Shown: positions 2,691-56,257, counted from the stretch's first letter. The stretch is 64,000 bases of DNA from an uncultured Prevotellaceae bacterium (GCA_900319225.1 ONNV01000001.1:96663-160662); one strand, 5' to 3'. Notes: generated by a model from the letters alone, not told the origin. Numbers and translations: made by a program.

Positions 2691-3509
2691 ATGGGATACA
2701 TTACTGAAGACAAACGTAAGGTTACCACACAGCGTCTCAGAGAGATGAAACAGCGTGGCGAGAAGATTGCAATGCTTACCGCCTATGACTACACCATGGC
2801 CAGGATGGTCGATGGTGCCGGTATCGACGTTATTCTGGTTGGAGACTCGGCATCGAACGTGATGGCCGGAAACCAGACTACACTGCCTATTACGCTTGAC
2901 CAGATGATATATCACGCCAAGTCTGTTGTACGCGGCGTGCAGCGCGCCCTGGTGGTTGTGGATATGCCTTTCGGCACCTATCAGATCAATGATTCCGAGG
3001 CTGTTACCAATGCCATCAAGATAATGAAGGTGTCACATGCCGATGCACTCAAACTGGAAGGCGGCGAGGAGATCCTGCCTCAGGTGCGTCATTTGATAGA
3101 AATAGGTATCCCTGTTATGGGACATCTGGGTCTGACACCCCAATCCATCAATAAATTCGGAACATATGCCGTTCGCGCCAAGGAGGAGGCCGAGGCTGAG
3201 AAACTCATTTCCGATGCCCACAAACTTGAGGAGGCAGGTTGTTTCTCAATCACACTGGAGAAAATCCCCGCCAAGCTTGCCGAGCGCGTAGCCAAGGAGG
3301 TCTCAATTCCTATTATAGGCATTGGTGCAGGAAACGGCGTTGACGGTCAGGTCCTGGTATGCGCCGATATGCTGGGCATGAACAACGATTTCAGTCCCCG
3401 GTTCCTGCGTCGTTACGCCAACCTCTACGAGACCATCACCAGCGCGGTAGGTCATTACGTGGAGGATGTCAAGAACTCTGACTTCCCCAACGAGAAGGAA
3501 CAATACTGA
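2691..3509 (+). CDS. panB: 3-methyl-2-oxobutanoate hydroxymethyltransferase (ketopantoate hydroxymethyltransferase)
   Basis: The 272-aa ORF reads ..[57 protein letters not shown].., a typical PanB signature and length. Confidence 0.93.
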
Positions 3510-3576
3510 TGACCCATTAGGGACAGTCCCCCTGTGCCATCTTGCATGGCACAGGGGGACTGTCCCTAATGGGTCA
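3510..3576. terminator. Bidirectional hairpin with a perfect 31-bp stem and 5-nt loop, shared by convergent panB and the DEAD-box helicase gene
   Basis: TGACCCATTAGGGACAGTCCCCCTGTGCCAT (3510-3540), loop CTTGC, then the exact reverse complement (3546-3576). The helicase stop codon is the last 3 nt (TCA at 3574-3576). A second in-frame TGA for panB is the first 3 nt. Confidence 0.75.
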
Positions 3577-4785
3577 TTTCTTGGGTTTGTGGAAGAACTT
3601 CCTTTTCCCTTTGTAGGGAGTTCTGGGACGTTCTGCTTTGTACTCCGGAGCCTCGCCAAGCTCGGCGGGGAGGGGGACTTTGTAGACGTCTTTGCCTAGG
3701 AAACGCTCTATCTGGCGGAACTTGGGCTGGTCGTCCAGGCTGATGAAGGTGATGGCGCAGCCTTCGGCGCCGGCGCGGGCGGTTCGGCCTATGCGGTGGA
3801 CGTAGTCTTCGGGGTCGTGGGGGACGTCAAAGTTGATGACAAGGTCTATGTCATCTATGTCTATTCCGCGTGATACGATATCGGTGGCTACGAGTATGTT
3901 GATGTGACCGTTGCGGAACTTGTGCATGATTTCATCACGCTCTGCCTGAGCCAGGTCGGAGTGCATCTCGCCTACGTTCAGACCAAGGCGGCGCAGTGAT
4001 TTGGTTATCTCCTTGACCTTGAGTTTGGACGATGCAAACGCAATTACCCTCTTGGGGGCGTTGGCGCTGAACAGACTCTGTATGATGGGCAGTTTCTGGG
4101 CCTCGTAGCATACGTAGGCGGCCTGCAGGATCTTTTCGGCCGGCTTGGAGACGGCCAGTTTGACCTCTACCGGGTTGTGCAGGATGGTGCGGGCCATGCG
4201 CTGTATCTCATCGGGCATGGTGGCGGAAAAGAGCATGTTCTGGCGCTTGGCGGGCAGCTGCTTTACAATCTGCATGATGTCATCATAGAAACCCATATCG
4301 AGCATGCGGTCGGCCTCGTCAAGGATAAAGAATGATACCTTGCTCAGGTCTATGTTGCCCAGACTGATATGGCTGATAAGACGGCCGGGAGTGGCTACCA
4401 CGATATCGGTACCCATGGCAAAGCCGCGTTTTTCCTGCTCAAAGCGGATTCCGTCATTGCCTCCGTAGACGGCGGTTCCGGATATGTTGGTGAAGTAGGA
4501 GAATCCCTCTATCTGCTGGTCTATCTGCTGTGCCAGCTCGCGGGTGGGTACCATGATGAGGCAGTTCACCGCGTCCTGGGGGTAGTCTCCACTTGACAGT
4601 TTGTCAAGTACGGGCAGCAGGTAGGCGGCGGTCTTGCCGGTTCCGGTCTGTGCTATGCCTATAAGGTCATGTCCTTCTAAAAGTATGGGTATGGCTTTCT
4701 CCTGGATGGGAGTGCACTCCTGAAAATTCATTGCGTCTATGGCGTCAAGTAACGCCGGCTGGAAATCTAGCTCGTCAAATCTCAC
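3574..4785 (-). CDS. DEAD-box ATP-dependent RNA helicase (RhlE-like)
   Basis: 403 aa with a Q-motif region, AQTGTGKT (motif I), DEAD (..FFILDEADRMLD..), SAT and HRIGRTARAG motifs. Confidence 0.92.
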   Translation of the reverse strand: MRFDELDFQPALLDAIDAMNFQECTPIQEKAIPILLEGHDLIGIAQTGTGKTAAYLLPVLDKLSSGDYPQDAVNCLIMVPTRELAQQIDQQIEGFSYFTNISGTAVYGGNDGIRFEQEKRGFAMGTDIVVATPGRLISHISLGNIDLSKVSFFILDEADRMLDMGFYDDIMQIVKQLPAKRQNMLFSATMPDEIQRMARTILHNPVEVKLAVSKPAEKILQAAYVCYEAQKLPIIQSLFSANAPKRVIAFASSKLKVKEITKSLRRLGLNVGEMHSDLAQAERDEIMHKFRNGHINILVATDIVSRGIDIDDIDLVINFDVPHDPEDYVHRIGRTARAGAEGCAITFISLDDQPKFRQIERFLGKDVYKVPLPAELGEAPEYKAERPRTPYKGKRKFFHKPKK

Positions 4786-4795
4786 GGTGAAATGG

Positions 4796-5914
4796 TTATT
4801 TTGGTGCTTTTATGTAAAGGAATATAGCAATCGGTATGTAAATGAAATTGGGAAGCCACTCGGCCATGAAAGCAGACATGGAGCCTGTTATGGCAAAGTT
4901 TGATGAGACTATCTGGAATAGTATGTATCCGAAACTCAGTCCCAGACCTATGCCCAGATAGAGTCCCATGCCGCCCTTACGTTTACGGCTGGAGAGCGAT
5001 ACGCCCATCACGGTCAGGATGAATGCGGCGAATGACATGGCGTAACGTTTATGGTACTCAATTTCAAAGTCCTGTATGTTGCCCATGCCGCGCTCTTTCT
5101 GGCGACGTATGTATTCACGCAGTTCGGCCGATGACATGGTCTCCTGCTGGCCGTTCTCAATCAAGAAATCTGCCGGCTCAAAGTGGATTATGGTATCCAT
5201 GTCATTGCCCTGGCTTATGGATTCTATGTTGCTTGAAAGGTCACGGATCAAATAGTTGCGCACTTTCCAGTGGTATTTATCGGCTGCGAGAGTGTCATAT
5301 GTGACGCTGCGGGCGGTCATGTGTGATACCAGTTTCTTGCCTTCAAACTTGTCAAGCGTAAAGCGGTAACCGGTACGGGTCTCGTGGTTGTAGCTCTCCA
5401 TGTAGGCTATGATACCTTCCTCAACTTCAAGCTGTATGTTGTAGGCGCCACTTGAGTTGTCACGGTTGTAGTGGCTCATTCCGTACTTGTTCTCAAACGT
5501 AAGTCTTTTTATGCTGGCCTTGGGTATGACCTGTGATCCCAGATAGAGGGTGAAAGCGGCGATAAGGGCTGCGGACAGCATATACGGAATCATCATCCTC
5601 TTAAAACTCATTCCCGTTGAGAACATGGCGATTATCTCAGAGTTCTCGGCCAGTTTTGAGGTGAAGAATATGATGGCTATGAATACGAACAGCGGACTGA
5701 AAAGATTGATGAAATAGGGGATAAAGTTGAGATAGTAATCAAATATGATCTCCTTGGCCGATGCTGCATTGAGCTTGTCAATCTTCTCATTGAAGTCAAA
5801 GACCACCAGGATCACGATGATGAGCGCAATGGTAAAGAAGTAGGTTCCAAGGAACTTCTTTATGATGTACCAGTCAAGGCGTTTGAGCAGTCTGTGTCTG
5901 AAAGGACTTTTCAT
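4796..5914 (-). CDS. LptF/LptG family permease (YjgP/YjgQ)
   Basis: 372 aa. The N-terminus LLKRLDWYIIKKFLGTYFFTIALII is typical of LptF/G, with multiple TM segments flanking a large periplasmic loop. Confidence 0.8.
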   Translation of the reverse strand: MKSPFRHRLLKRLDWYIIKKFLGTYFFTIALIIVILVVFDFNEKIDKLNAASAKEIIFDYYLNFIPYFINLFSPLFVFIAIIFFTSKLAENSEIIAMFSTGMSFKRMMIPYMLSAALIAAFTLYLGSQVIPKASIKRLTFENKYGMSHYNRDNSSGAYNIQLEVEEGIIAYMESYNHETRTGYRFTLDKFEGKKLVSHMTARSVTYDTLAADKYHWKVRNYLIRDLSSNIESISQGNDMDTIIHFEPADFLIENGQQETMSSAELREYIRRQKERGMGNIQDFEIEYHKRYAMSFAAFILTVMGVSLSSRKRKGGMGLYLGIGLGLSFGYILFQIVSSNFAITGSMSAFMAEWLPNFIYIPIAIFLYIKAPK

Positions 5915-12595: not shown

Positions 12596-12670
12596 CGGGA
12601 TGTAGTTCAGTCCGGTTAGAATGCCTGGTTTGGGACCAGGTGGTCGAAGGTTCGAATCCTTTCATCCCGA
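12596..12670 (+). tRNA. tRNA-Pro (anticodon TGG)
   Basis: Manual cloverleaf: acceptor CGGGATG/CATCCCG, anticodon stem CCTGG/CCAGG with loop TTTGGGA, T-arm GAAGG-TTCGAAT-CCTTT, discriminator A. No encoded CCA. Confidence 0.9.
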
Positions 12671-12674
12671 CTAT

Positions 12675-12710
12675 GAAACAGTGGCTCAAATAGCTGCTGT
12701 TTCTTTTTTT
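12675..12710 (+). terminator. Rho-independent terminator after tRNA-Pro
   Basis: Stem GAAACAG (12675-12681) / CTGTTTC (12697-12703), followed by a T7 run. Confidence 0.55.
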
Positions 12711-12741
12711 GCAATCTTAGCTGATTTTGGAAAGATTCCTG

Positions 12742-12759
12742 TCGGGATGAAAGGATTCG
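12742..12759. repeat. Inverted copy of the 3' end of tRNA-Pro (18/18 nt)
   Basis: TCGGGATGAAAGGATTCG is the exact reverse complement of 12653-12670 (T-loop, T-stem and acceptor 3' strand of the adjacent tRNA-Pro). Confidence 0.9.
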
Positions 12760-12780
12760 GACCGTGGGGCAAGGCCCCAC

Positions 12781-12894
12781 TTACCTCCTTTTATTTTGCT
12801 ACGCAAAAGCGCTCCATTTCATTTCGCTTGGCGGCCCTCCGGGACCGCGGTCTCGTTCGTCGCCTCACTCGCTCCGATACGTTTGTCCCTGCGT
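12781..12894. repeat. tRNA-downstream conserved element, copy 1 (homologous to 44984-45096)
   Basis: Shared blocks: TACCT.CTTTTA.TTTGCTA.CGCAAA ... GCGGCCCTCCGGGACCGCG.TCTCG ... CTCGCTC ... ATACGTT.G..CCTGCGT. Confidence 0.8.
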
Positions 12895-12977
12895 TATTCT
12901 TCAATTTTCAATTCTCCACTCTCAATTATTTTATAAAAAGGTTGGGGGGTAATAAAAAAGGTGTACCTTTGCGGTCA

Positions 12978-13065
12978 GGAAAGCAGAATGGATTGAATCA
13001 GAGTTTTCCTATTATTGAGTTGTGCGCATAACGCACATTGTGTACGGTAACGTACCCTTTTTTTT
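12978..13065 (+). ncRNA. Candidate small RNA (promoter-to-terminator unit of about 85-90 nt)
   Basis: A -7 box TACCTTTG at 12964-12971 is followed by hairpins TGTGCG/CGCACA (13021-13037) and GTACG-GTAA-CGTAC (13042-13055), then CC and T8 (13058-13065). No ORF longer than 2 codons starts at the only ATG. Confidence 0.35.
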
Positions 13066-13206
13066 GAGTTGGTTACTTTATAACCGATGGTTGTCAACAA
13101 CCGCCCGACTTGGAAAACGGTCAATAAGAAGAGTAGTAAAAGTATTTGTTTACTATATAGACTCTGATTTGAAAGTACAAAGGCATTGCTGCCTACGTAC
13201 CTGAGA

Positions 13207-13246
13207 CGTAAACAAGAGAGGTTTTATTGTTTATGTCTTTTTTTTG
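13207..13246 (+). terminator. Strong terminator/attenuator hairpin 65 nt upstream of the speA start
   Basis: ACGTAAACAA (13207-13216) pairs with TTGTTTATGT (13228-13237), including one G-U pair, with an 11-nt loop. CTTTTTTTT follows. A second hairpin CCCCTT-AAAA-AAGGGG comes immediately after. Confidence 0.5.
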
Positions 13247-13310
13247 TCCCCTTAAAAAAGGGGCGGGAAAAAGGCTGGATGGTTGAACTTTTAAAACGTT
13301 TTTGAAGTAG

Positions 13311-14768
13311 ATGGATCAGCGAAAAGCTCCCGTTTATGAAGCCCTTCAGGAGTTCCGCAGGAACAGAGTGGTACCATTCGATGTACCTGGTCACAAAAGA
13401 GGTAGGGGAAACCCCGAACTTGTAGCTCTGCTGGGTAAGCAGTGCGTTGAGTTGGATGTGAACTCAATGAAACCCCTGGACAATCTGTGTCATCCCATTT
13501 CAGTTATCAAAGAGGCTGAGGAACTGGCCGCCGAGGCATTCGGAGCCGCACATGCATTCCTTATGGTGGGCGGTACCACATCGGCCGTACAGACTATGGT
13601 GCTGACCGCATGCAAGAGCGGTGAGAAGATAATCCTGCCGCGTAACGTGCACCGCAGCGTCATCAACGCCCTGGTTGTGAATGGTGCAACTCCCATCTAT
13701 GTGAATCCCGATACGGACAACCGCCTGGGTATAGCTCTGGGCATGAAGATATCACAGGTGGAGCGTGCCATTGAGGAGAACCCCGAGGCAAAAGCCATCC
13801 TGGTGAACAACCCCACATACTACGGTATCTGCTCCAACCTTAAGAAGATTGTGGAACTGGCCCATGAGCACGGCATGATGGTGCTGGTGGATGAGGCTCA
13901 CGGAACACACTTCTACTTTGGTGAGAACATGCCTTTGACGGCCATGGCAGCCGGGGCCGATATGTCATCGGTCTCAATGCACAAATCAGGCGGAAGCCTT
14001 ACGCAGAGCTCATTCCTGCTTACAGGCCCTAACGTCAGCGCCGGTTATGTGCGTCAGGTAATCAACCTCACCCAGACCACAAGCGCATCATATCTGCTTA
14101 TCTCAAGTCTTGACATATCACGCCGTAATCTGGCCCTGCGCGGTAAGGAACTCTTTGCCGAGGTTATGCGTATTGCCGATTACGCCCGCACAGAGATCAA
14201 CAAGATAGGCGGTTACTACGCATACGGCAAGGAGCTGATAAACGGTGACAGTGTATATGACTTTGACCCCACCAAACTGACTGTCTACACACTGGATATC
14301 GGCCTGGCCGGCATTGAGGTGTATGACCTGCTGCGTGACGAGTATGACATCCAGCTGGAGTTGGGTGATATGGGTAACGTGCTGGCTTACATATCGATAG
14401 GTGACCGTATGCGTGAGGTGGAGCGTTTGGTTAGCGCGCTGGTTGACGTGAAGCGCCGATACAGCAAGGACCGCACCGGTCTGTTTGACCATGAGTATAT
14501 CAACCCTTCGGTGGTTATGACTCCGCAGGAGGCTTTCTATGCTCCCAAGGAGGAGATGATTCCCATTCGTGAGACCAACGGACGTATCTGTACGGAGTTC
14601 GTGATGTGTTATCCTCCCGGAATTCCTATCCTGGCACCGGGTGAGCGTATCACGCAGGAAATCATCGATTATATCCTTTATGCAAAGGAGAAAGGCTGCC
14701 AGCTCACCGGCCCCGAGGATGAGAAGGTTGAGCGTCTGAATGTGATTAGGGAAAGTACAACATATTGA
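13311..14768 (+). CDS. speA: PLP-dependent Orn/Lys/Arg decarboxylase (aminotransferase-fold, Bacillus SpeA-like arginine decarboxylase)
   Basis: 485 aa: ..VPFDVPGHKRG..VGGTTSAVQ..VDEAHGTHF..SMHKSGGSLTQSS (PLP lysine). It is the first gene of the polyamine operon. Confidence 0.8.
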   Translation: MDQRKAPVYEALQEFRRNRVVPFDVPGHKRGRGNPELVALLGKQCVELDVNSMKPLDNLCHPISVIKEAEELAAEAFGAAHAFLMVGGTTSAVQTMVLTACKSGEKIILPRNVHRSVINALVVNGATPIYVNPDTDNRLGIALGMKISQVERAIEENPEAKAILVNNPTYYGICSNLKKIVELAHEHGMMVLVDEAHGTHFYFGENMPLTAMAAGADMSSVSMHKSGGSLTQSSFLLTGPNVSAGYVRQVINLTQTTSASYLLISSLDISRRNLALRGKELFAEVMRIADYARTEINKIGGYYAYGKELINGDSVYDFDPTKLTVYTLDIGLAGIEVYDLLRDEYDIQLELGDMGNVLAYISIGDRMREVERLVSALVDVKRRYSKDRTGLFDHEYINPSVVMTPQEAFYAPKEEMIPIRETNGRICTEFVMCYPPGIPILAPGERITQEIIDYILYAKEKGCQLTGPEDEKVERLNVIRESTTY

Positions 14769-14780
14769 TTCTGACTGACA

Positions 14781-15644
14781 ATGGAATTCTGGTTTACTGA
14801 GCTTCATACTCCAAACGTAAAGTTCTCCGTAAAGGTTGACAAGCACCTTTACACTTCCGAGAATGACTTGGGTCGTGTTGATATTTTTGAGTCGCCTGAG
14901 TTTGGCCGTTTCCTGGCCGTTGACGGTTACATCATTTTCACCCAGCGTGATGAGTTTATCTATGATGAGATGCTGTCACACGTGCCTATGGCCGTGAATC
15001 CCGCCATTGAGAGGATATTGGTATTCGGATCAGGTGACGGAGGTGTGGTACGCGAGCTGCTCAAGTACAAGACGGTCAAGACCATTGACCTTATTGAGAT
15101 AAATGAGGGTGTGGTTCAGGCCTGCCGTGAGTATTTCCCCGAGATGGCCGAGTCACTGGATGATCCGCGCGTGACCATCTACACTGAGAACGCCCTGCGT
15201 TTTATCCGCCACATTGAGAATGAGTATGACCTTATTATAGTTGACTCGGCCGGTTTCTACGGACCTGGTGAGAGTCTGCTTACCCGTGAGTTCTACGGCA
15301 GTTGCTACAAGGCTCTAAAGGCCGATGGAATCATGGTAAATCAGCATCAGAGTCCCTTCTATGAGGAGGACCGCATTGAGACCCAGAAGGCCCATAAGCG
15401 TATCGTGAACAGCTTCCCCATAAGCCGCGTATATCAGGCTCATATCCCCACATACCCGTCGGGTTACTGGCTGTTCGGATTCGCATCCAAGAAGTTCCGT
15501 CCGGTGATTGACCTGGATGCCGAGGCCTGGAACCAGCTTGGAATCAAGACCGATTATTACACAACCAACCTCCATAAAGGTTGTTTTGCACTCCCCGCAT
15601 ATGTGGAGCGCATGCTGTCAGATGTGGAGCGTATATATGATTAA
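14781..15644 (+). CDS. speE: Spermidine synthase-family aminopropyltransferase homologue with a non-canonical active-site motif
   Basis: 287 aa: MEFWFTE..FGRFLAVDGYIIFTQRDEFIYDEML.HVP..VFGSGDGGVVRELLK..IDLIEIN... The canonical DS(T/S)DP box reads DSAGF here. Confidence 0.75.
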   Translation: MEFWFTELHTPNVKFSVKVDKHLYTSENDLGRVDIFESPEFGRFLAVDGYIIFTQRDEFIYDEMLSHVPMAVNPAIERILVFGSGDGGVVRELLKYKTVKTIDLIEINEGVVQACREYFPEMAESLDDPRVTIYTENALRFIRHIENEYDLIIVDSAGFYGPGESLLTREFYGSCYKALKADGIMVNQHQSPFYEEDRIETQKAHKRIVNSFPISRVYQAHIPTYPSGYWLFGFASKKFRPVIDLDAEAWNQLGIKTDYYTTNLHKGCFALPAYVERMLSDVERIYD

Positions 15645-26917: not shown

Positions 26918-26999
26918 GGAGGGAGCCAAAGGGGACGGTTCTATTTGGCCCCTTTTTGAAAAATGGGGCCAAATAGAACCGTCCCCTTTGGCTCCCTCC
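26918..26999. repeat. 35-bp perfect-stem hairpin of the GGGGACGGTTCTATTTGGCC family (terminator position)
   Basis: GGAGGGAGCCAAAGGGGACGGTTCTATTTGGCCCC (26918-26952), a 12-nt loop, then the exact reverse complement (26965-26999). It starts 4 nt after the stop of the 27003-27437 gene. Confidence 0.85.
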
Positions 27000-42812: not shown

Positions 42813-43325
42813 ATGTCCCAAGACAGAAAGCAGGAGGGCTTGACCGCCCTTGGTAACAAGACAGCATATTCAAACACTTACAATCCGGATGTCCTGGAGG
42901 CGTTTGAGAATCTTAATAAGGAGAATGACTACTGGGTGCGTTTTAACTGCCCGGAGTTTACAAGTCTCTGCCCTATAACCGGACAGCCCGATTTTGCGGA
43001 GATTCGCATCAGCTATATCCCTGATGTAAAGATGGTTGAGAGCAAGTCACTCAAACTCTATCTGCACAGTTACCGCAATCACGGCGGATTCCACGAGGAC
43101 TGCGTGAACCGCATCATGAAGGACCTTATCAAACTGATGGATCCCAAGTACATAGAGGTGACCGGTTTCTTTGTTCCGCGTGGCGGCATATCGATATATC
43201 CCTATGCCAACTACGGCCGCAAGGGCACCAAGTACGAGACTCTTGCCGAGCAGAGAATGTGGAATTGGGGACAGTCCCCTTTTCCACATGTCCCCAATTC
43301 CACATTTTCACATGACAAAGACTGA
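42813..43325 (+). CDS. queF: NADPH-dependent 7-cyano-7-deazaguanine (preQ0) reductase
   Basis: ..[58 protein letters not shown]... The last ~22 codons ([22 protein letters not shown]) are encoded by a hairpin repeat. Confidence 0.9.
43258..43312. repeat. GGGGAC-N-GTCCCC hairpin repeat (expanded copy of 25711-25749)
   Basis: TGTGGAATTGGGGACAGTCCCC-TTTTCCACATGTCCCC-AATTCCACATTTTCACA. Confidence 0.85.
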
Positions 43326-43896
43326 ACTTGTATTGAGTTGGTTGGAGGAGCACGGGATAGAGTACCAGGTGCACTATCATCCGCCGTTGCCCACCATTGA
43401 GGAGGCTCTGGCTTATTGGAAAAACATAGACTCCACGCACTGCAAGAACCTGTTTTTCCGCAACCACAAGGGTAACCGTCACTATATGGCCAGTTTTGAG
43501 TGCCATAAGAACCTGGATATCCACGGCCTGGAGCATATAGTAAGGCAGGGTAAGCTGAGTTTTGCCAGCCCCGAGCGTATGGACCGATGTCTGGGCGTTG
43601 CTCCCGGATCAGTCTGCGCCTACGGCCTAATAAATGATATGAACCTGGTGGAGCACGCGGCTGTCATCGCGCCCGACGGCTCACGTGATTTTGGTCAGGT
43701 GAAAGAGGGTGTGAACCCCAAGGAACTGTTCGATAACGGTCACCGCGTAAAATACTTTCTTGACGCAGACCTCAAGAACGCCGATCGCGTATCATTCCAC
43801 CCCTGCGAGAATACAGCCAGCGTTGTAGTAAGCAATGCCGGCTTTATGCGCTTCCTGGAGATCTGGGGCGGTGAGGTGGAGTGGATTGAAGTGTAA
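43312..43896 (+). CDS. YbaK/prolyl-tRNA-synthetase-associated (aminoacyl-tRNA deacylase) domain protein
   Basis: 194 aa from [47 protein letters not shown]... The track ORF start (43171) lies inside queF. The ATG at 43312 is in frame and lies at the end of the repeat. Confidence 0.7.
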
Positions 43897-43931
43897 AATG
43901 TGGAAAAGGGGACAGTCCCCTTTTTCACATT
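43897..43931. repeat. GGGGAC-N-GTCCCC hairpin repeat at a convergent gene junction
   Basis: AATGTGGAAAAGGGGA-CAG-TCCCCTTTTTCACATT (one arm mismatch). It starts 1 nt after the ybaK-like stop and ends 1 nt before the stop of the minus-strand gene. Confidence 0.8.
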
Positions 43932-44714
43932 TCAGCGAATTATATCCCTAATTATGTCGGTGGGGACGGATAGGGTGGTGATACCCGTTGCGTACGGTGC
44001 AATGTCGTACTGGTTGAATATGAAATCAATGGTATCCTCACGTATCTCAAAGTTCTCCGGTACAAACATGGGCTCATTGCTGAAATAGCCGTGCTCGTCA
44101 AGCTCGTCGCGGCTGCTGCATTCGGCATATTCCAGGAGTAACTGATCCAGGACCGGAATCAGTTTGCTCTCATATCCCGGTTTGAAATAGTTGTCAAGTG
44201 TCACTACGCTGCCATCCTCAAGACGATAGTTGCGGCAGGTAATGAACGTGCCGCCGTGGGCACCGCCCGTATATTGGTAGAAATTGATGAAATGACCTAT
44301 TATGTCCTTGCGGTTGCCGTAATGGACCTCAGTATTAAGCACGTATTCATAGTCAATGTTACGAGGCTCAAAACCCTCCTCCTTGGCATAACGTATCTGC
44401 TCCTTGTTATCCTCTTTGAATATGTTAATCACGGAGTCTATGAATGATATCATCGCGGCACGTACATCGGTAGTACGTTTTCCGAACATGAATTCCGATA
44501 TGTCCCGGTTGAAAGCGTCGGCAAATACCGTATCTGCACCGTGTGCCTTGAGTACGTGCATGTCAAACGAGCATGACGGGTGCTCCTTGCCTTGGGTGTA
44601 GGGCAGGGTCTCCTTGAATGATACATACTGGAACGCATAATCGTCACCCTTGCTACGGCAGGCGGCAAGTGACAGTATTGCGGTGAGCGCAATTATGATT
44701 TTATGGGCTTTCAT
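43932..44714 (-). CDS. DUF3298/DUF4163-type lipoprotein
   Basis: MKAHKIIIALTAILSLAAC lipobox, with the start trimmed to M10 of the track ORF. YQYTGGAHGG is the hallmark of DUF3298. Confidence 0.7.
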   Translation of the reverse strand: MKAHKIIIALTAILSLAACRSKGDDYAFQYVSFKETLPYTQGKEHPSCSFDMHVLKAHGADTVFADAFNRDISEFMFGKRTTDVRAAMISFIDSVINIFKEDNKEQIRYAKEEGFEPRNIDYEYVLNTEVHYGNRKDIIGHFINFYQYTGGAHGGTFITCRNYRLEDGSVVTLDNYFKPGYESKLIPVLDQLLLEYAECSSRDELDEHGYFSNEPMFVPENFEIREDTIDFIFNQYDIAPYATGITTLSVPTDIIRDIIR

Positions 44715-44847: not shown

Positions 44848-44924
44848 GTGCCCGTAGTTCAGTTGGTTAGAGCGTCAGATTGTGGTTCTGAATGTCGTGG
44901 GTTCGAGTCCCACCGGGCACCCCA
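44848..44924 (+). tRNA. tRNA-His (anticodon GTG), with G-1 and an encoded CCA
   Basis: Acceptor GTGCCCG/CGGGCAC with an extra 5' G opposite the discriminator C. Anticodon stem TCAGA/TCTGA with loop TTGTGGT. T-arm GTGGG-TTCGAGT-CCCAC. CCA at 44922-44924. Confidence 0.9.
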
Positions 44925-44961
44925 AAAGAAAAAAGAGGTCATTCGGCCTCTTTTTTCTTTT
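44924..44961. terminator. 15-bp-stem hairpin terminator after tRNA-His
   Basis: AAAAGAAAAAAGAGG - TCATTCGG - CCTCTTTTTTCTTTT. Confidence 0.65.
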
Positions 44962-44983: not shown

Positions 44984-45096
44984 TACCTTCTTTTAGTTTG
45001 CTAACGCAAACCCGTTCACTTCGTTCACTCAGCGGCCCTCCGGGACCGCGTTCTCGCTCCAAGCATTCGCTCGCCCCAATACGTTAGCACCTGCGT
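44984..45096. repeat. tRNA-downstream conserved element, copy 2 (homologous to 12781-12894)
   Basis: The same ordered blocks as copy 1, including the identical 19-mer GCGGCCCTCCGGGACCGCG and the terminal CCTGCGT. Confidence 0.8.
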
Positions 45097-45280
45097 GAAT
45101 ATCCAATACCTACGGCATTGGATTGAATGGGAGAACATGCGGATTACCCAGCCATTAAAATGGCTGGCTACCCATATCTTGTGCCTAGCGGCACAACAAC
45201 ATGCCGTAGGCATGGGATTAAGGTAGCCAGCCAATTCATTGGCTGGATCTTTCCAATTATAAATACATTTCCCTTTTGGT

Positions 45281-56087: not shown

Positions 56088-56141
56088 GGACTTATTTTTA
56101 GAGACTGCAAAGTTAGTAAAAAGACTGCGACTTGCAGCCAT

Positions 56142-56257
56142 GGGGACGGTTCTATTTGGCTCCTAGGTGCAGAATTCTTTCTGACTGCGTATCAGGGCCA
56201 AATAGAACCGTCCCCAGTGGCCCTGATCTTACCGAGGTGCCAAATAGAACCGTCCCC
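56142..56257. repeat. Cluster of three GGGGACGGTTCTATTTGGC units (one forward, two inverted)
   Basis: The forward copy is at 56142-56160 and reverse-complement copies are at 56197-56215 and 56239-56257. An additional inverted pair ATCAGGGCC/GGCCCTGAT (56191-56199 / 56219-56227) brackets the middle copy. Confidence 0.85.

What the first reader, a model, noticed from the sequence alone, without database searches (positions are those of the whole stretch)
12653..12759. tRNA-Pro is followed by an exact inverted copy of its own 3' end
The 18 nt at 12742-12759 are the perfect reverse complement of 12653-12670 (T-loop, T-stem and acceptor 3' strand). A terminator hairpin lies between them. Integrase att sites normally produce direct repeats of tRNA 3' ends, not inverted ones. 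The same architecture occurs at tRNA-His, using that tRNA's own sequence, so this is not one repeat copied twice. It is locus-specific complementarity. On the minus strand it reads as a tRNA-like 3' module (TCCGAATCCTTTCATCCCGA) at the end of a conserved element.
Basis: seen in the sequence. Interest (0 to 1): 0.7.

Follow-up and report, generated by a model that had tools for sequence, protein, structure and literature searches.

The report
Inverted gene-end copies beside a terminator repeat
In a group of rumen and gut Prevotella-like bacteria, the terminator after tRNA and other highly expressed genes is followed by a backwards copy of that gene's own end, joined to a shared hairpin-rich repeat; this looks like the scar of an unusual, undescribed way of inserting DNA, not a working tRNA-like RNA.

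Summary
Bases 12653-12670 and 12742-12759 are exact reverse complements (23 nt with 1 mismatch when extended), with a terminator between them. tRNA-His has 34-nt arms.

It is one case of a lineage-wide architecture. Of 49 low-GC Bacteroidales loci fetched with the 19-nt core of the shared downstream element (E, 65-115 nt), nearly all show this order: gene, terminator, T-run, reverse-complement copy of that gene's last 8-50 nt, then E. E is always joined by the same end. The genes include tRNAs with 13 anticodons, tmRNA, 5S rRNA, an unknown sRNA and one protein gene.

The copy matches the genomic trailer, not CCA. It decays, does not follow changes in its tRNA, has variable breakpoints, and is lost with E in near-identical relatives. 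Whole units flip strand between relatives.

I read the copy as a footprint: snap-back DNA synthesis on the terminator hairpin, coupled to arrival of a new mosaic hairpin repeat. That mechanism is inferred, not shown.

A guide RNA, a tRNA mimic, an integrase att site and a MITE are not supported. E itself shows covarying hairpins that make sense only on the strand antisense to the tRNA. No description was found in Rfam, phage or plasmid records, or the searched papers.

The parts
12596..12671 (+). tRNA-Pro(TGG) gene; its last 23 nt (12649-12671) form the left arm of the inverted repeat
   Evidence: ARAGORN, Rfam RF00005 at 68.9 bits, the repeat finder I1
12675..12710 (+). Intrinsic terminator of the tRNA: 12-pair hairpin 12675-12703 followed by a T-run
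   Evidence: Terminator scan; also in the near-identical relative L136
12711..12740 (.). 30-nt spacer that separates the terminator from the inverted copy; absent from the near-identical allele L136
   Evidence: Pairwise alignment of window and L136
12741..12763 (-). Reverse-complement copy of the tRNA-Pro 3' end, 22 of 23 matching (GGATTCGGACC versus the expected GGATTCGAACC). The identical variant is present in L097; L056 differs from it at one base.
12764..12780 (.). Locus-specific GC hairpin GTGGGGCAAGGCCCCAC in front of the element's T-run. It is an optional module, different in sequence at each locus.
   Evidence: Comparison of 50 loci
12784..12894 (-). Element E, Pro copy. Parts: constant end ACCTCCTTTTA (12783-12793); hairpin H1 (12794-12808); H2 region (12809-12830); core hairpin (12831-12848); GA-rich hairpin D (12852-12871); terminal ATACG..CGT (12877-12894). 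The strand given is the one on which the covarying hairpins make sense.
   Evidence: Alignment A2; covariation; nhmmer profile hit 12784-12897
12900..12925 (.). Short TTCAATTTT-type tandem tail after E; also after E in L081, L082 and L111; absent from the E-less allele L136
44848..44924 (+). tRNA-His(GTG) gene; its 3' end from 44905 is part of the left arm
44925..44961 (.). Bidirectional terminator (A-run, hairpin, T-run) at the centre of a 34-nt-arm palindrome; 100% identical in L140
44962..44980 (-). Reverse-complement copy of the tRNA-His 3' end, 1 mismatch; 17 of 19 positions identical in L140
44985..45096 (-). Element E, His copy (core at 45032-45050)

Best explanation
What it is (shown). 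The inverted 18-23 nt is one instance of a lineage-wide architecture in rumen and gut Prevotella-like Bacteroidales. The order is: a highly expressed gene, its intrinsic terminator and T-run, a reverse-complement copy of the 8-50 nt that precede the terminator, sometimes a private GC hairpin, then a modular 65-115-nt hairpin repeat (E). E is always attached by the same end (RACC-T7-A-hairpin H1).

How it arose (inferred). The copy is a footprint of DNA synthesis, not a working sequence. A DNA 3' end at the terminator's T-run snapped back on the terminator hairpin. It copied a variable stretch of the gene's own end, often stopping in the palindromic TTCGAA of the T-loop. It then switched to, or was joined to, the constant end of E. 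Each insertion therefore carries an inverted duplicate of its own target. Afterwards the duplicate drifts, suffers internal deletions and can be lost together with E. The whole unit can be inverted in place.

What it does now (inferred). At most it lengthens a bidirectional terminator hairpin and adds a second T-run. E is a new mosaic array of hairpins, REP/BIME-like in organisation, whose conserved folds exist on the strand antisense to the tRNA. That points to a single-stranded DNA or RNA intermediate, or a ligand for that strand.
For: Generality
- 49 low-GC Bacteroidales loci were found with E's 19-mer core. 36 have a tRNA or tmRNA called just upstream on the same strand, and further loci show the gene end at a contig edge.
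- The genes include tRNAs with 13 anticodons, tmRNA, 5S rRNA (34-nt copy, 1 mismatch), an unknown sRNA (L012), and a protein gene (L095: 13 of 19 in register, with a 9-mer exact run).
- The inverted-repeat score between the gene tail and its downstream DNA has median 14, against 6 for a reversed, non-complemented control. The control never exceeds 8.

The copy derives from DNA or the primary sequence
- It starts right after the T-run and matches the genomic trailer, not CCA.

Constant element end against variable target breakpoints
-.
- No target-site duplication: 3 of 51 loci against 3.8 expected with shuffled partners.
- No terminal inverted repeats.

The copy behaves neutrally
- Between window and L140: tRNA 100%, terminator 100%, copy 17/19, coding sequences 84-91%.
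- In L056 the tRNA changed but the copy did not follow.
- The copy is decayed in L030, L075 and L124-127.

E and the copy travel together
- The near-identical allele L136 lacks E and the outer 6 nt of the copy. L131 keeps only a stub of E.
- The outer part of the copy (GGATTCGGACC) is shared between the window and L097/L056.

The centre turns over while the arms persist
- Window versus L097: terminator 25% identical, copy 23/23.

Strand-specific folds in E
- H1 covaries with Watson-Crick pairs only.
- Hairpin D has two covarying pairs (GC 27 / AU 6 and CG 24 / UA 9, none broken). On the + strand they are flanked by pyrimidine-pyrimidine mismatches. On the minus strand these become tandem G.A pairs closed by a GCGA loop.
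- The minus strand is predicted to be the more stable in 30-31 of 33 copies.
Against: - No insertion event was caught in the act. The only E-less alleles are better read as deletions.
- No polymerase, reverse transcriptase or transposase has been linked to E.
- In several loci the T-run is an unpaired bulge between the terminator stem and the copy (L059, L054, L027). A simple snap-back primed from a fully paired 3' end does not fit these without an extra step.
- The predicted microhomology between the end of the terminator stem and the bases before E's T-run is weak.
- The strong preference for stable-RNA genes over ordinary protein genes is not explained by a purely DNA-level mechanism.
- E and the neighbouring modules are better conserved than the flanking coding sequence at the His locus (96-98% against 84-91%). 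The block, if not the copy, may therefore be under selection or concerted evolution.
Confidence: 0.45

Rival explanations
1. Selected RNA-level device. When RNA polymerase reads through the first terminator, the downstream complement pairs with the 3' part of the stable RNA. This gives a very long hairpin followed by a second U-run. It would act as a fail-safe or bidirectional terminator, or as an RNase III-type processing or quality-control signal. E would be an insulator or hairpin array kept by selection.
For: - Very stable predicted hairpins: -75 kcal/mol, z = -9 and -15.
- A T-run (CCTTTTTTTA) always follows the copy or a private GC hairpin.
- The terminal hairpin of E shows U-G wobble on the + strand in 10 copies.
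- The architecture is present at both tRNAs of the window and at nearly every stable-RNA gene end within the fetched loci.
- E and the neighbouring modules are more conserved than the flanking coding sequence at the His locus.
Against: - The copy decays and does not compensate when the tRNA changes (L056, L030, L075, L124, L140).
- Copy length ranges from 8 to 50 nt.
- Loci with an extra GC hairpin before the T-run have longer copies, not decayed ones, so there is no compensation pattern.
- Close relatives lack the copy and E altogether (L128, L123, L146).
- Pairing would compete with tRNA folding.
Confidence: 0.2
2. Remnant of a convergent twin gene. The stable-RNA gene was duplicated in inverted orientation around its bidirectional terminator, making a large palindrome. 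One arm was then truncated, often by E or by a deletion starting at E, leaving only its 3' end.
For: - The complete arm lies on opposite sides in relatives. For tRNA-Pro the window has the + strand gene and L122 the minus strand gene, with a decayed sense fragment next to the Spt stop codon.
- tRNA-His is flipped in L143/L144.
- For tmRNA, L018 has the full gene to the left of the same terminator and E, whereas L091 has a 43-nt fragment on the left and the full gene to the right of E. L069 and L095 differ in the same way.
- Copies reach 41-50 nt.
Against: - No locus with two complete convergent copies was found.
- No 5' half of the gene lies beyond E in any locus (BLAST).
- The L122 and L143 flips are equally explained by inversion of the whole cassette, with fragment and even E moving along.
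- The architecture also exists for the end of a protein-coding gene.
Confidence: 0.2
3. Minus-strand chimeric RNA: a conserved scaffold (E), then a locus-specific 3' module identical to the neighbour's 3' end, then the shared terminator. It would act as a guide, decoy or tRNA-like mimic.
For: - E's covarying hairpins make sense only on the minus-sense strand: tandem G.A pairs, GNRA-type and GNA loops (alignment).
- The minus strand is predicted to be the more stable.
- The order scaffold, variable module, terminator is the layout of known guide RNAs (my own knowledge, a lead only).
Against: - No TAnnTTTG promoter motif on the minus strand within 160 nt in 0 of 33 loci.
- Module length is variable and the module decays without compensation.
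- The module can be the end of a coding sequence or of 5S rRNA.
- No conserved protein gene was seen next to E in the loci whose flanks were inspected (window, Pro and His relatives).
- ARAGORN and Rfam find nothing on the minus strand.
- The fragment lacks any 5' acceptor partner.
Confidence: 0.07
4. Leftover att junction of tRNA-targeting integrative elements, with E as a conserved arm of the element.
For: - The DNA downstream of tRNA-Pro differs completely between strains that encode the identical Spt protein: Tex in L116, Abi_2 in L117. Other relatives have UmuDC or RNase T there. This is typical of an integration hot spot.
- Read on the minus strand, E, fragment and terminator look like an attR junction.
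Against: - The repeat is inverted, not direct.
- Breakpoints vary for the same tRNA.
- No integrase was seen in the inspected flanks.
- Targets include 5S rRNA and the end of a protein gene.
- E is absent from the plasmid, phage and IMG/VR collections.
Confidence: 0.03

Closest known systems
REP/BIME elements of enterobacteria and pseudomonads (repetitive extragenic palindromes, mobilised by RAYT Y1 transposases)
   Same: Extragenic and multi-copy. Built as a mosaic of small hairpin modules that occur in different combinations. Placed at the 3' ends of transcription units. Hairpins are kept by compensatory changes.
   Different: No sequence similarity and no clear GTAG/CGTC head. Association with a RAYT gene was not tested. 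REPs are not known (to my knowledge) to carry an inverted copy of the upstream gene's end. E is almost restricted to stable-RNA genes.
Hairpin-templated (quasipalindrome) mutation and short-inverted-repeat-initiated fold-back duplication (Ripley-type template switching; palindrome formation after a break next to a short inverted repeat)
   Same: An inverted copy centred on a pre-existing hairpin. Variable extent. The copy derives from the DNA sequence including the trailer. Breakpoints fall at a palindromic motif.
   Different: Those are sporadic mutational events. Here the outcome is systematic, lineage-wide and always joined to one specific repeat by its constant end.
attL/attR junctions of integrative elements in tRNA and tmRNA genes
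   Same: A duplicated 3' segment of a tRNA or tmRNA next to variable DNA. The flank of tRNA-Pro is a variable region.
   Different: Orientation is inverted. Breakpoints are variable. No integrase was seen. The architecture also occurs at 5S rRNA and at the end of a coding sequence.
Bacterial class C group II introns (insert just downstream of intrinsic terminator hairpins by target-primed reverse transcription)
   Same: The site is immediately after a terminator hairpin and T-run, in a fixed orientation relative to the terminated gene. One end is constant. Many copies lack the far end.
   Different: E is 65-115 nt with no ribozyme domains or reverse-transcriptase ORF. No Rfam intron match. The resemblance concerns target choice only.
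Retroviral primer-binding site
   Same: An 18-nt stretch complementary to the 3' end of tRNA-Pro.
   Different: The complement matches the genomic trailer, not the CCA end of mature tRNA. Length varies at other loci. Non-tRNA genes also have it.

Membership tests
Integrase att site in a tRNA gene | Direct repeat of the tRNA 3' segment at both ends of the inserted DNA | tested here: not met
   The repeat is inverted and lies 25-70 nt from the gene.
Integrase att site in a tRNA gene | A fixed crossover position for a given tRNA, and an integrase gene at one end | tested here: not met
   Breakpoints differ among loci of the same tRNA (Gln -30, -35, -38; Ser -18 to about -50). No integrase Pfam family appears in the called genes of the Pro and His relatives.
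MITE (miniature inverted-repeat transposable element) | Terminal inverted repeats | tested here: not met
   No inverted repeat joins the two ends of E; only internal hairpins were found.
MITE (miniature inverted-repeat transposable element) | Target-site duplication flanking each copy | tested here: not met
   Flanking matches of 7 nt or more in 3 of 51 copies, against a mean of 3.8 with shuffled partners.
REP/BIME | Multi-copy extragenic imperfect palindromes combined into mosaics | tested here: met
   Modules H1, H2, core, D and the terminal hairpin occur in several combinations. There are at least 3 copies per MAG with the exact core, and 57 profile hits in the loci.
REP/BIME | Conserved GTAG or CGTC head, and a cognate RAYT (Y1 transposase) gene in the genome | not tested
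   GTAG occurs only inside the H1 loop and in one optional module (GTAGCCCTTTGGGCTAC). No genome-wide search for RAYT was possible.
Intrinsic (bidirectional) terminator | GC-rich hairpin followed by a T-run; an A-run upstream for the opposite direction | tested here: met
   12675-12703 plus T-run. The His palindrome has an A-run and a T-run. This holds for the centre only; it does not account for the copy or for E.
Known structured RNA family (Rfam 15) | A match at or near a family's gathering score | tested here: not met
   Only the two tRNAs reach threshold. Nothing meaningful covers E even at E-value up to 10.
tRNA-like element / tmRNA on the minus strand | Acceptor stem formed by 5' and 3' strands plus a T-arm | tested here: not met
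   ARAGORN finds nothing on the minus strand. The T-stem 5' strand is missing or mismatched, and there is no 5' acceptor partner.
Guide-RNA systems that home to tRNA genes (e.g. type V-K CAST homing guide, omega RNA, bridge RNA) | A guide of defined length kept complementary to its target, with an effector or transposase gene nearby | tested here: not met
   Length runs from 8 to 50 nt. The copy decays and does not follow its target. The inspected flanks carry unrelated housekeeping genes. No promoter motif.
Retroviral-type primer-binding site | Complement of the mature tRNA 3' end including CCA | tested here: not met
   Copies read T-run + GTCGGG.. or GTGGGCG.., which is the genomic trailer, not TGG + the acceptor.

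The most novel reading that the evidence does not exclude
E is a non-autonomous element that integrates at intrinsic terminators of very highly expressed genes by target-primed synthesis from a single-stranded (RNA or ssDNA) intermediate. The primer first snaps back on the terminator hairpin and then jumps to the constant A-rich 3' end of the element. This produces an inverted target duplication, an insertion signature not described for any bacterial mobile element, and makes E a kind of bacterial SINE-like or ssDNA hitch-hiker.
Probability: 0.2. Interest if true: 0.85.

Novelty: new variant of a known kind. Interest (0 to 1): 0.58.

Why it matters
If the reading is right, a whole clade of abundant rumen and gut bacteria marks the ends of its tRNA, tmRNA and rRNA operons with a repeat whose arrival leaves an inverted copy of the target. 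That would be a new insertion signature and a natural record of polymerase template switching at terminators.

Practical consequences:
- These 80-110-nt near-perfect palindromes sit inside or next to tRNA genes, where they can confuse tRNA annotation, att-site and genomic-island callers, and assemblers.
- They give ready markers for strain-level rearrangements, such as units that flip strand and terminators that are swapped between fixed arms.
- E's strand-specific, covarying hairpins (tandem G.A pairs, GNA/GNRA loops) are a defined target for finding the protein or process that recognises them.

Tried and rejected
- **Rfam.** Searched at gathering and at permissive thresholds over both loci and 13 related loci. 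Only tRNA, tmRNA, 5S and 23S rRNA were found. A sub-threshold Acido-Lenti-1 match lies outside E.
- **Annotated collections.** E was searched against plasmid and phage records and IMG/VR viral contigs, with no match.
- **Target-site duplications.** No excess over shuffled partners. The one striking 8-mer, in L091, is explained by a full tmRNA lying beyond E.
- **Terminal inverted repeats.** None.
- **Minus-strand promoter.** The Bacteroidetes -7 motif TAnnTTTG is found in 0 of 33 loci. The sigma-70 scan gave one weak hit, at chance level.
- **Origin from CCA or mature tRNA.** Rejected, because copies match the genomic trailer.
- **5' halves of the genes beyond E.** None found by BLAST.
- **Microhomology.** I compared the end of the terminator stem with the bases before E's T-run, as a simple realignment model predicts. 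The agreement was not convincing.
- **A coding reading of E.** Rejected by inspection, because the variants differ by 1-nt indels.
- **Transposase between paired E copies.** In L018 the gene between them is an ordinary lipoprotein-like ORF.
- **Literature.** Four full-text searches on tRNA-linked repeats, REP-like elements in Prevotella, and inverted duplication at tRNA genes found no description (one search failed on syntax).
- **Metagenome scan for tRNA-Pro loci with an inverted copy.** Only two relevant loci were found (L131, L136), so the frequency of copies without E remains poorly sampled.

Full report
**1. The observation**

tRNA-Pro(TGG) lies at 12596-12671 on the + strand, and tRNA-His(GTG) at 44848-44924. 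Bases 12653-12670 and 12742-12759 are exact reverse complements. With one mismatch the arms extend to 12649-12671 and 12741-12763. A terminator hairpin with a T-run sits between them at 12675-12703. At tRNA-His the arms are 34 nt with one mismatch around an 8-nt loop, so the tRNA end, the A-run, the terminator stem and the T-run form one long palindrome.

As RNA, both regions fold far better than shuffled controls: -75.4 kcal/mol (z = -8.9) and -75.8 kcal/mol (z = -14.9). Only 12 inverted pairs of 18 nt or more within 150 nt exist in the whole window. Two of them are at its only two tRNA genes.

Both copies are followed by a shared element of about 112 nt, which I call E. It runs from 12784 to 12894 and from 44985 to 45096. 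Its invariant core, GCGGCCCTCCGGGACCGCG, occurs nowhere else in the window.

**2. It is a family-wide architecture**

A scan of one genome per species with the 19-mer core returned 115 loci. Of these, 49 are low-GC Bacteroidales/Prevotellaceae MAGs from rumen and gut. The rest are chance matches in high-GC genomes.

In 36 of the 49, a tRNA or tmRNA lies 90-240 nt upstream of the core on the same strand. Several of the remaining loci show the gene end at a contig edge or another gene type.

Every one of these has the reverse complement of that gene's own 3' end between its terminator and E. The copy is 8-50 nt long. The genes are:
- tRNAs: Ser(tga, cga), Val(tac, gac, cac), Pro, Gln, Arg, Met, Lys, Cys and Tyr, plus His in the window;
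- tmRNA;
- 5S rRNA (L002: Rfam hit at 958-1066; 34-nt copy with one mismatch);
- an unidentified sRNA of about 75 nt (L012 and L115);
- one protein-coding gene, where the copy covers the last codons and the stop (L095 and L018: 13 of 19 in register with a 9-mer exact run).

The inverted-repeat score between the last 25 nt of the gene and the downstream 200 nt has median 14. A reversed, non-complemented control has median 6 and never exceeds 8.

It is not specific to tRNA.

**3. Anatomy**

Read on the gene's strand, the order is:
- the gene end;
- often an A-run;
- the terminator hairpin;
- a T-run;
- the inverted copy;
- 0-15 nt of filler, or a private GC hairpin;
- RACC-TTTTTTT-A;
- hairpin H1;
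- the H2 region;
- a GC core hairpin;
- a CT-rich segment (D);
- ATACG..CGTAT-like hairpin ending in ACCTGCGT.

The T7-A-H1 end is always present and always faces the copy. The far end is often missing or replaced by other small hairpin modules, so E is a mosaic.

There are no terminal inverted repeats. There is no excess of target-site duplications: 3 of 51, against 3.8 with shuffled partners.

**4. Which strand matters in E**

H1 shows strong covariation with Watson-Crick pairs only and no wobble pairs. For example, pair 16-33 is GC 16, UA 9, AU 8.

In segment D, two adjacent pairs covary without a single broken cell: GC 27 / AU 6 and CG 24 / UA 9. On the + strand they are flanked by pyrimidine-pyrimidine mismatches. 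On the opposite strand the same helix reads C-GA-NN-GA-G. That is two Watson-Crick pairs bracketed by tandem G.A pairs and closed by a GCGA loop. By my count on alignment A2, the H1 loop on that strand is a G-N-A triloop closed by C-G in 25 of 33 copies.

The antisense strand is predicted to be the more stable in 30 of 33 copies with RNA parameters and 31 of 33 with DNA parameters. This asymmetry is partly expected for a purine-rich strand.

Against this, the terminal hairpin shows U-G wobble on the + strand in 10 copies.

From general knowledge, GNA triloops and sheared tandem G.A pairs are classic features of very stable single-stranded DNA hairpins, and they also occur in RNA. I take this as evidence that the strand antisense to the tRNA is, at some stage, single-stranded and recognised.

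It is not evidence for a gene. No Bacteroidetes -7 motif (TAnnTTTG) faces into E on that strand in any of 33 loci, while 12 of 33 have one on the other strand serving the next gene.

**5. The copy behaves as a relic**

- It begins right after the T-run and matches the genomic trailer (T-run + GTCGGG.., GTGGGCG..). It does not match a CCA-ended mature tRNA.
- Breakpoints differ among loci of the same tRNA. Many fall inside the T-loop, next to the palindromic TTCGAA. Some copies are the reverse complement of the tRNA with an internal deletion. Examples are Pro, GGATTCG[AACCTTC]GACC, and Ser(tga), where the L001 type equals the L054 type minus 19 nt.
- Between the window and L140, the tRNA and terminator are 100% identical and the copy is 17/19. 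The flanking coding sequences are 84-91%, E is 96.4% and the modules beyond E are 98.4%.
- In L056 the tRNA differs at acceptor and T-stem positions, but the copy stayed like that of its relatives.
- In L030, L075 and L124-127 the copy is heavily decayed.
- Loci with an extra GC hairpin before E's T-run have longer copies, not shorter ones, so nothing compensates for decay.

**6. History at the two window loci**

*tRNA-Pro, downstream of the Spt-like gene:*
- L136 has flanks almost identical to the window. It keeps the terminator and a 17-nt copy. It lacks the 30-nt spacer (12711-12740) and everything from the outer 6 nt of the copy to the end of the TTCAATTTT tail, which is replaced by CAAGTA.
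- The outer part of the copy (GGATTCGGACC) is shared between the window and L097/L056, both of which have E. The E-less allele is therefore best read as a deletion.
- L131 keeps a stub of E about 15 nt long.
- L116 and L117 encode the identical Spt protein. They have unrelated terminators, the same copy, and unrelated downstream genes. Only L117 has E.
- In L097 the copy is 23/23 identical to the window, while the terminator between the arms is unrelated.
- L128/129, L123 and L118/119 have neither copy nor E.
- In L122, the closest relative (Spt 94% amino-acid identity), the whole unit is inverted. The tRNA, its promoter and a terminator lie on the minus strand, and a decayed sense fragment abuts the Spt stop codon.

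*tRNA-His:*
- L140/141 match the window.
- L143/144 have the whole unit, with a different E variant, on the opposite strand between the same genes.
- L146/147 have neither copy nor E.

*tmRNA:*
- L018 and L091 share the same terminator and E, but carry the full gene on opposite sides. L091 keeps a 43-nt fragment joined to a second E.
- L069 and L095 differ in the same way.

In L122 and L143 the fragment moves with the unit, which fits cassette inversion. The tmRNA pair is not explained so simply and keeps a twin-gene intermediate in play.

**7. Explanation**

Four things have to be explained together:
- a constant element end joined to variable positions in an inverted copy of the local sequence;
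- a copy centred on the terminator;
- derivation from the DNA-level sequence;
- neutral drift afterwards.

The simplest process is polymerase template switching. A 3' end at or near the T-run folds back on the terminator hairpin. It copies part of the gene end, often stopping in the self-complementary T-loop. It then continues on, or is joined to, the end of E.

Whether E arrives as single-stranded DNA, as RNA copied by a reverse transcriptase, or is merely the site of a break cannot be decided here.

Weak points:
- no insertion was caught in progress;
- no enzyme has been linked to E;
- in some loci the T-run is an unpaired bulge in the palindrome;
- the preference for stable-RNA genes is unexplained;
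- E is well conserved, which suggests E (not the copy) is used or homogenised.

Rivals, ranked in the fields above, are a selected fail-safe terminator or processing stem, a truncated convergent twin gene, a minus-strand guide or decoy RNA, and an integrase att remnant.

**8. Comparison and novelty**

E is organised like REP/BIME mosaics, but it has no sequence relation to them, no tested RAYT link, and a target-derived inverted copy that REPs lack. The copy resembles quasipalindrome or fold-back products, but here it is systematic.

It fails the defining tests for att sites, MITEs, Rfam families, tRNA-like structures, homing guides and primer-binding sites (see the membership table).

Nothing similar turned up in Rfam, plasmid or phage records, IMG/VR, or four literature searches. 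I rate it a new variant of known kinds: a small extragenic hairpin repeat combined with hairpin-templated duplication. There is a modest chance that it reflects a new insertion mechanism.

Noticed in passing
window 12962-13070: A small separate transcription unit. It has a Bacteroidetes-type -7 motif TACCTTTG (12966-12973), about 70 nt of sequence identical in L122 and L136, then a hairpin with a T-run (13042-13055) whose stem changes compensatorily in L122 (GTACGCCTGGCGTAC). It is a candidate sRNA or leader upstream of the 485-aa ORF at 13311-14768. The L122 homologue of that ORF carries aminotransferase and Orn/Lys/Arg decarboxylase Pfam hits. No Rfam match.
   Followed up: partly
window 3509-3577, 26918-26999, 43253-43309, 43896-43932, 56141-56257: A second family of long, near-perfect palindromes built around GGGGAC..GTCCCC (arms 18-40 nt). 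Two copies (3509-3577 and 43896-43932) exactly fill the gap between convergent ORFs, and the first supplies a stop codon. The same motif occurs in L001, L051 and L113. In L113 it is nested between tRNA-Tyr and its inverted copy.
   Followed up: partly
window 45097-45280: A block of further hairpin modules after the His copy of E. It has 40-nt arms at 45148-45187 / 45207-45246 and a sub-threshold Acido-Lenti-1 match at 45200-45246 on the minus strand (30.1 bits against 37; E = 6e-5). It is 98.4% identical in L140 although the flanking coding sequences are 84-91% identical. Part of it follows E in L099.
   Followed up: partly
L012 about 545-657 and L115 about 5225-5302 (oriented coordinates): An unidentified conserved sRNA-like sequence of about 75 nt (..CACAGCACATCCAACTCTTCTATAAGTCTGGTTCGAAAACAGGTATCCTTCTGGGTAC). 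It has its own terminator, a 12-nt inverted copy and E. It is not called by ARAGORN or Rfam, and the flanking genes differ between the two loci.
   Followed up: partly
L116, L117, L124, L128 versus window 12900-14800: The DNA downstream of tRNA-Pro is a strain-variable region: Tex, Abi_2, UmuD/UmuC, RNase T or a decarboxylase-like gene in different relatives. L116 and L117 differ in this way even though they encode the identical Spt protein. The terminator between the fixed arms is swapped as well.
   Followed up: partly
L027 1966-2040; window 12900-12925; L087 5903-5950: Short tandem arrays directly after E: ACCTGCGTTAG repeated about 6 times in L027; TTCAATTTT-type repeats in the window, L081, L082 and L111; GTAGGTTTCCAGTT repeats in L087, L054 and L108. 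The right end of E seems prone to local repeat expansion.
   Followed up: no
L118/L119 3920-4400: In a more distant relative, tRNA-Pro is followed by a different nested palindrome (AAACAATCAAGAAGGGG .. CCCCTTCTTGATTGTTT) and tandem copies of another repeat (CCTTAAGGATGCGCGAACGCAGTGAGCGAATCCTT..). Other lineages therefore carry other repeat families at the same site.
   Followed up: no
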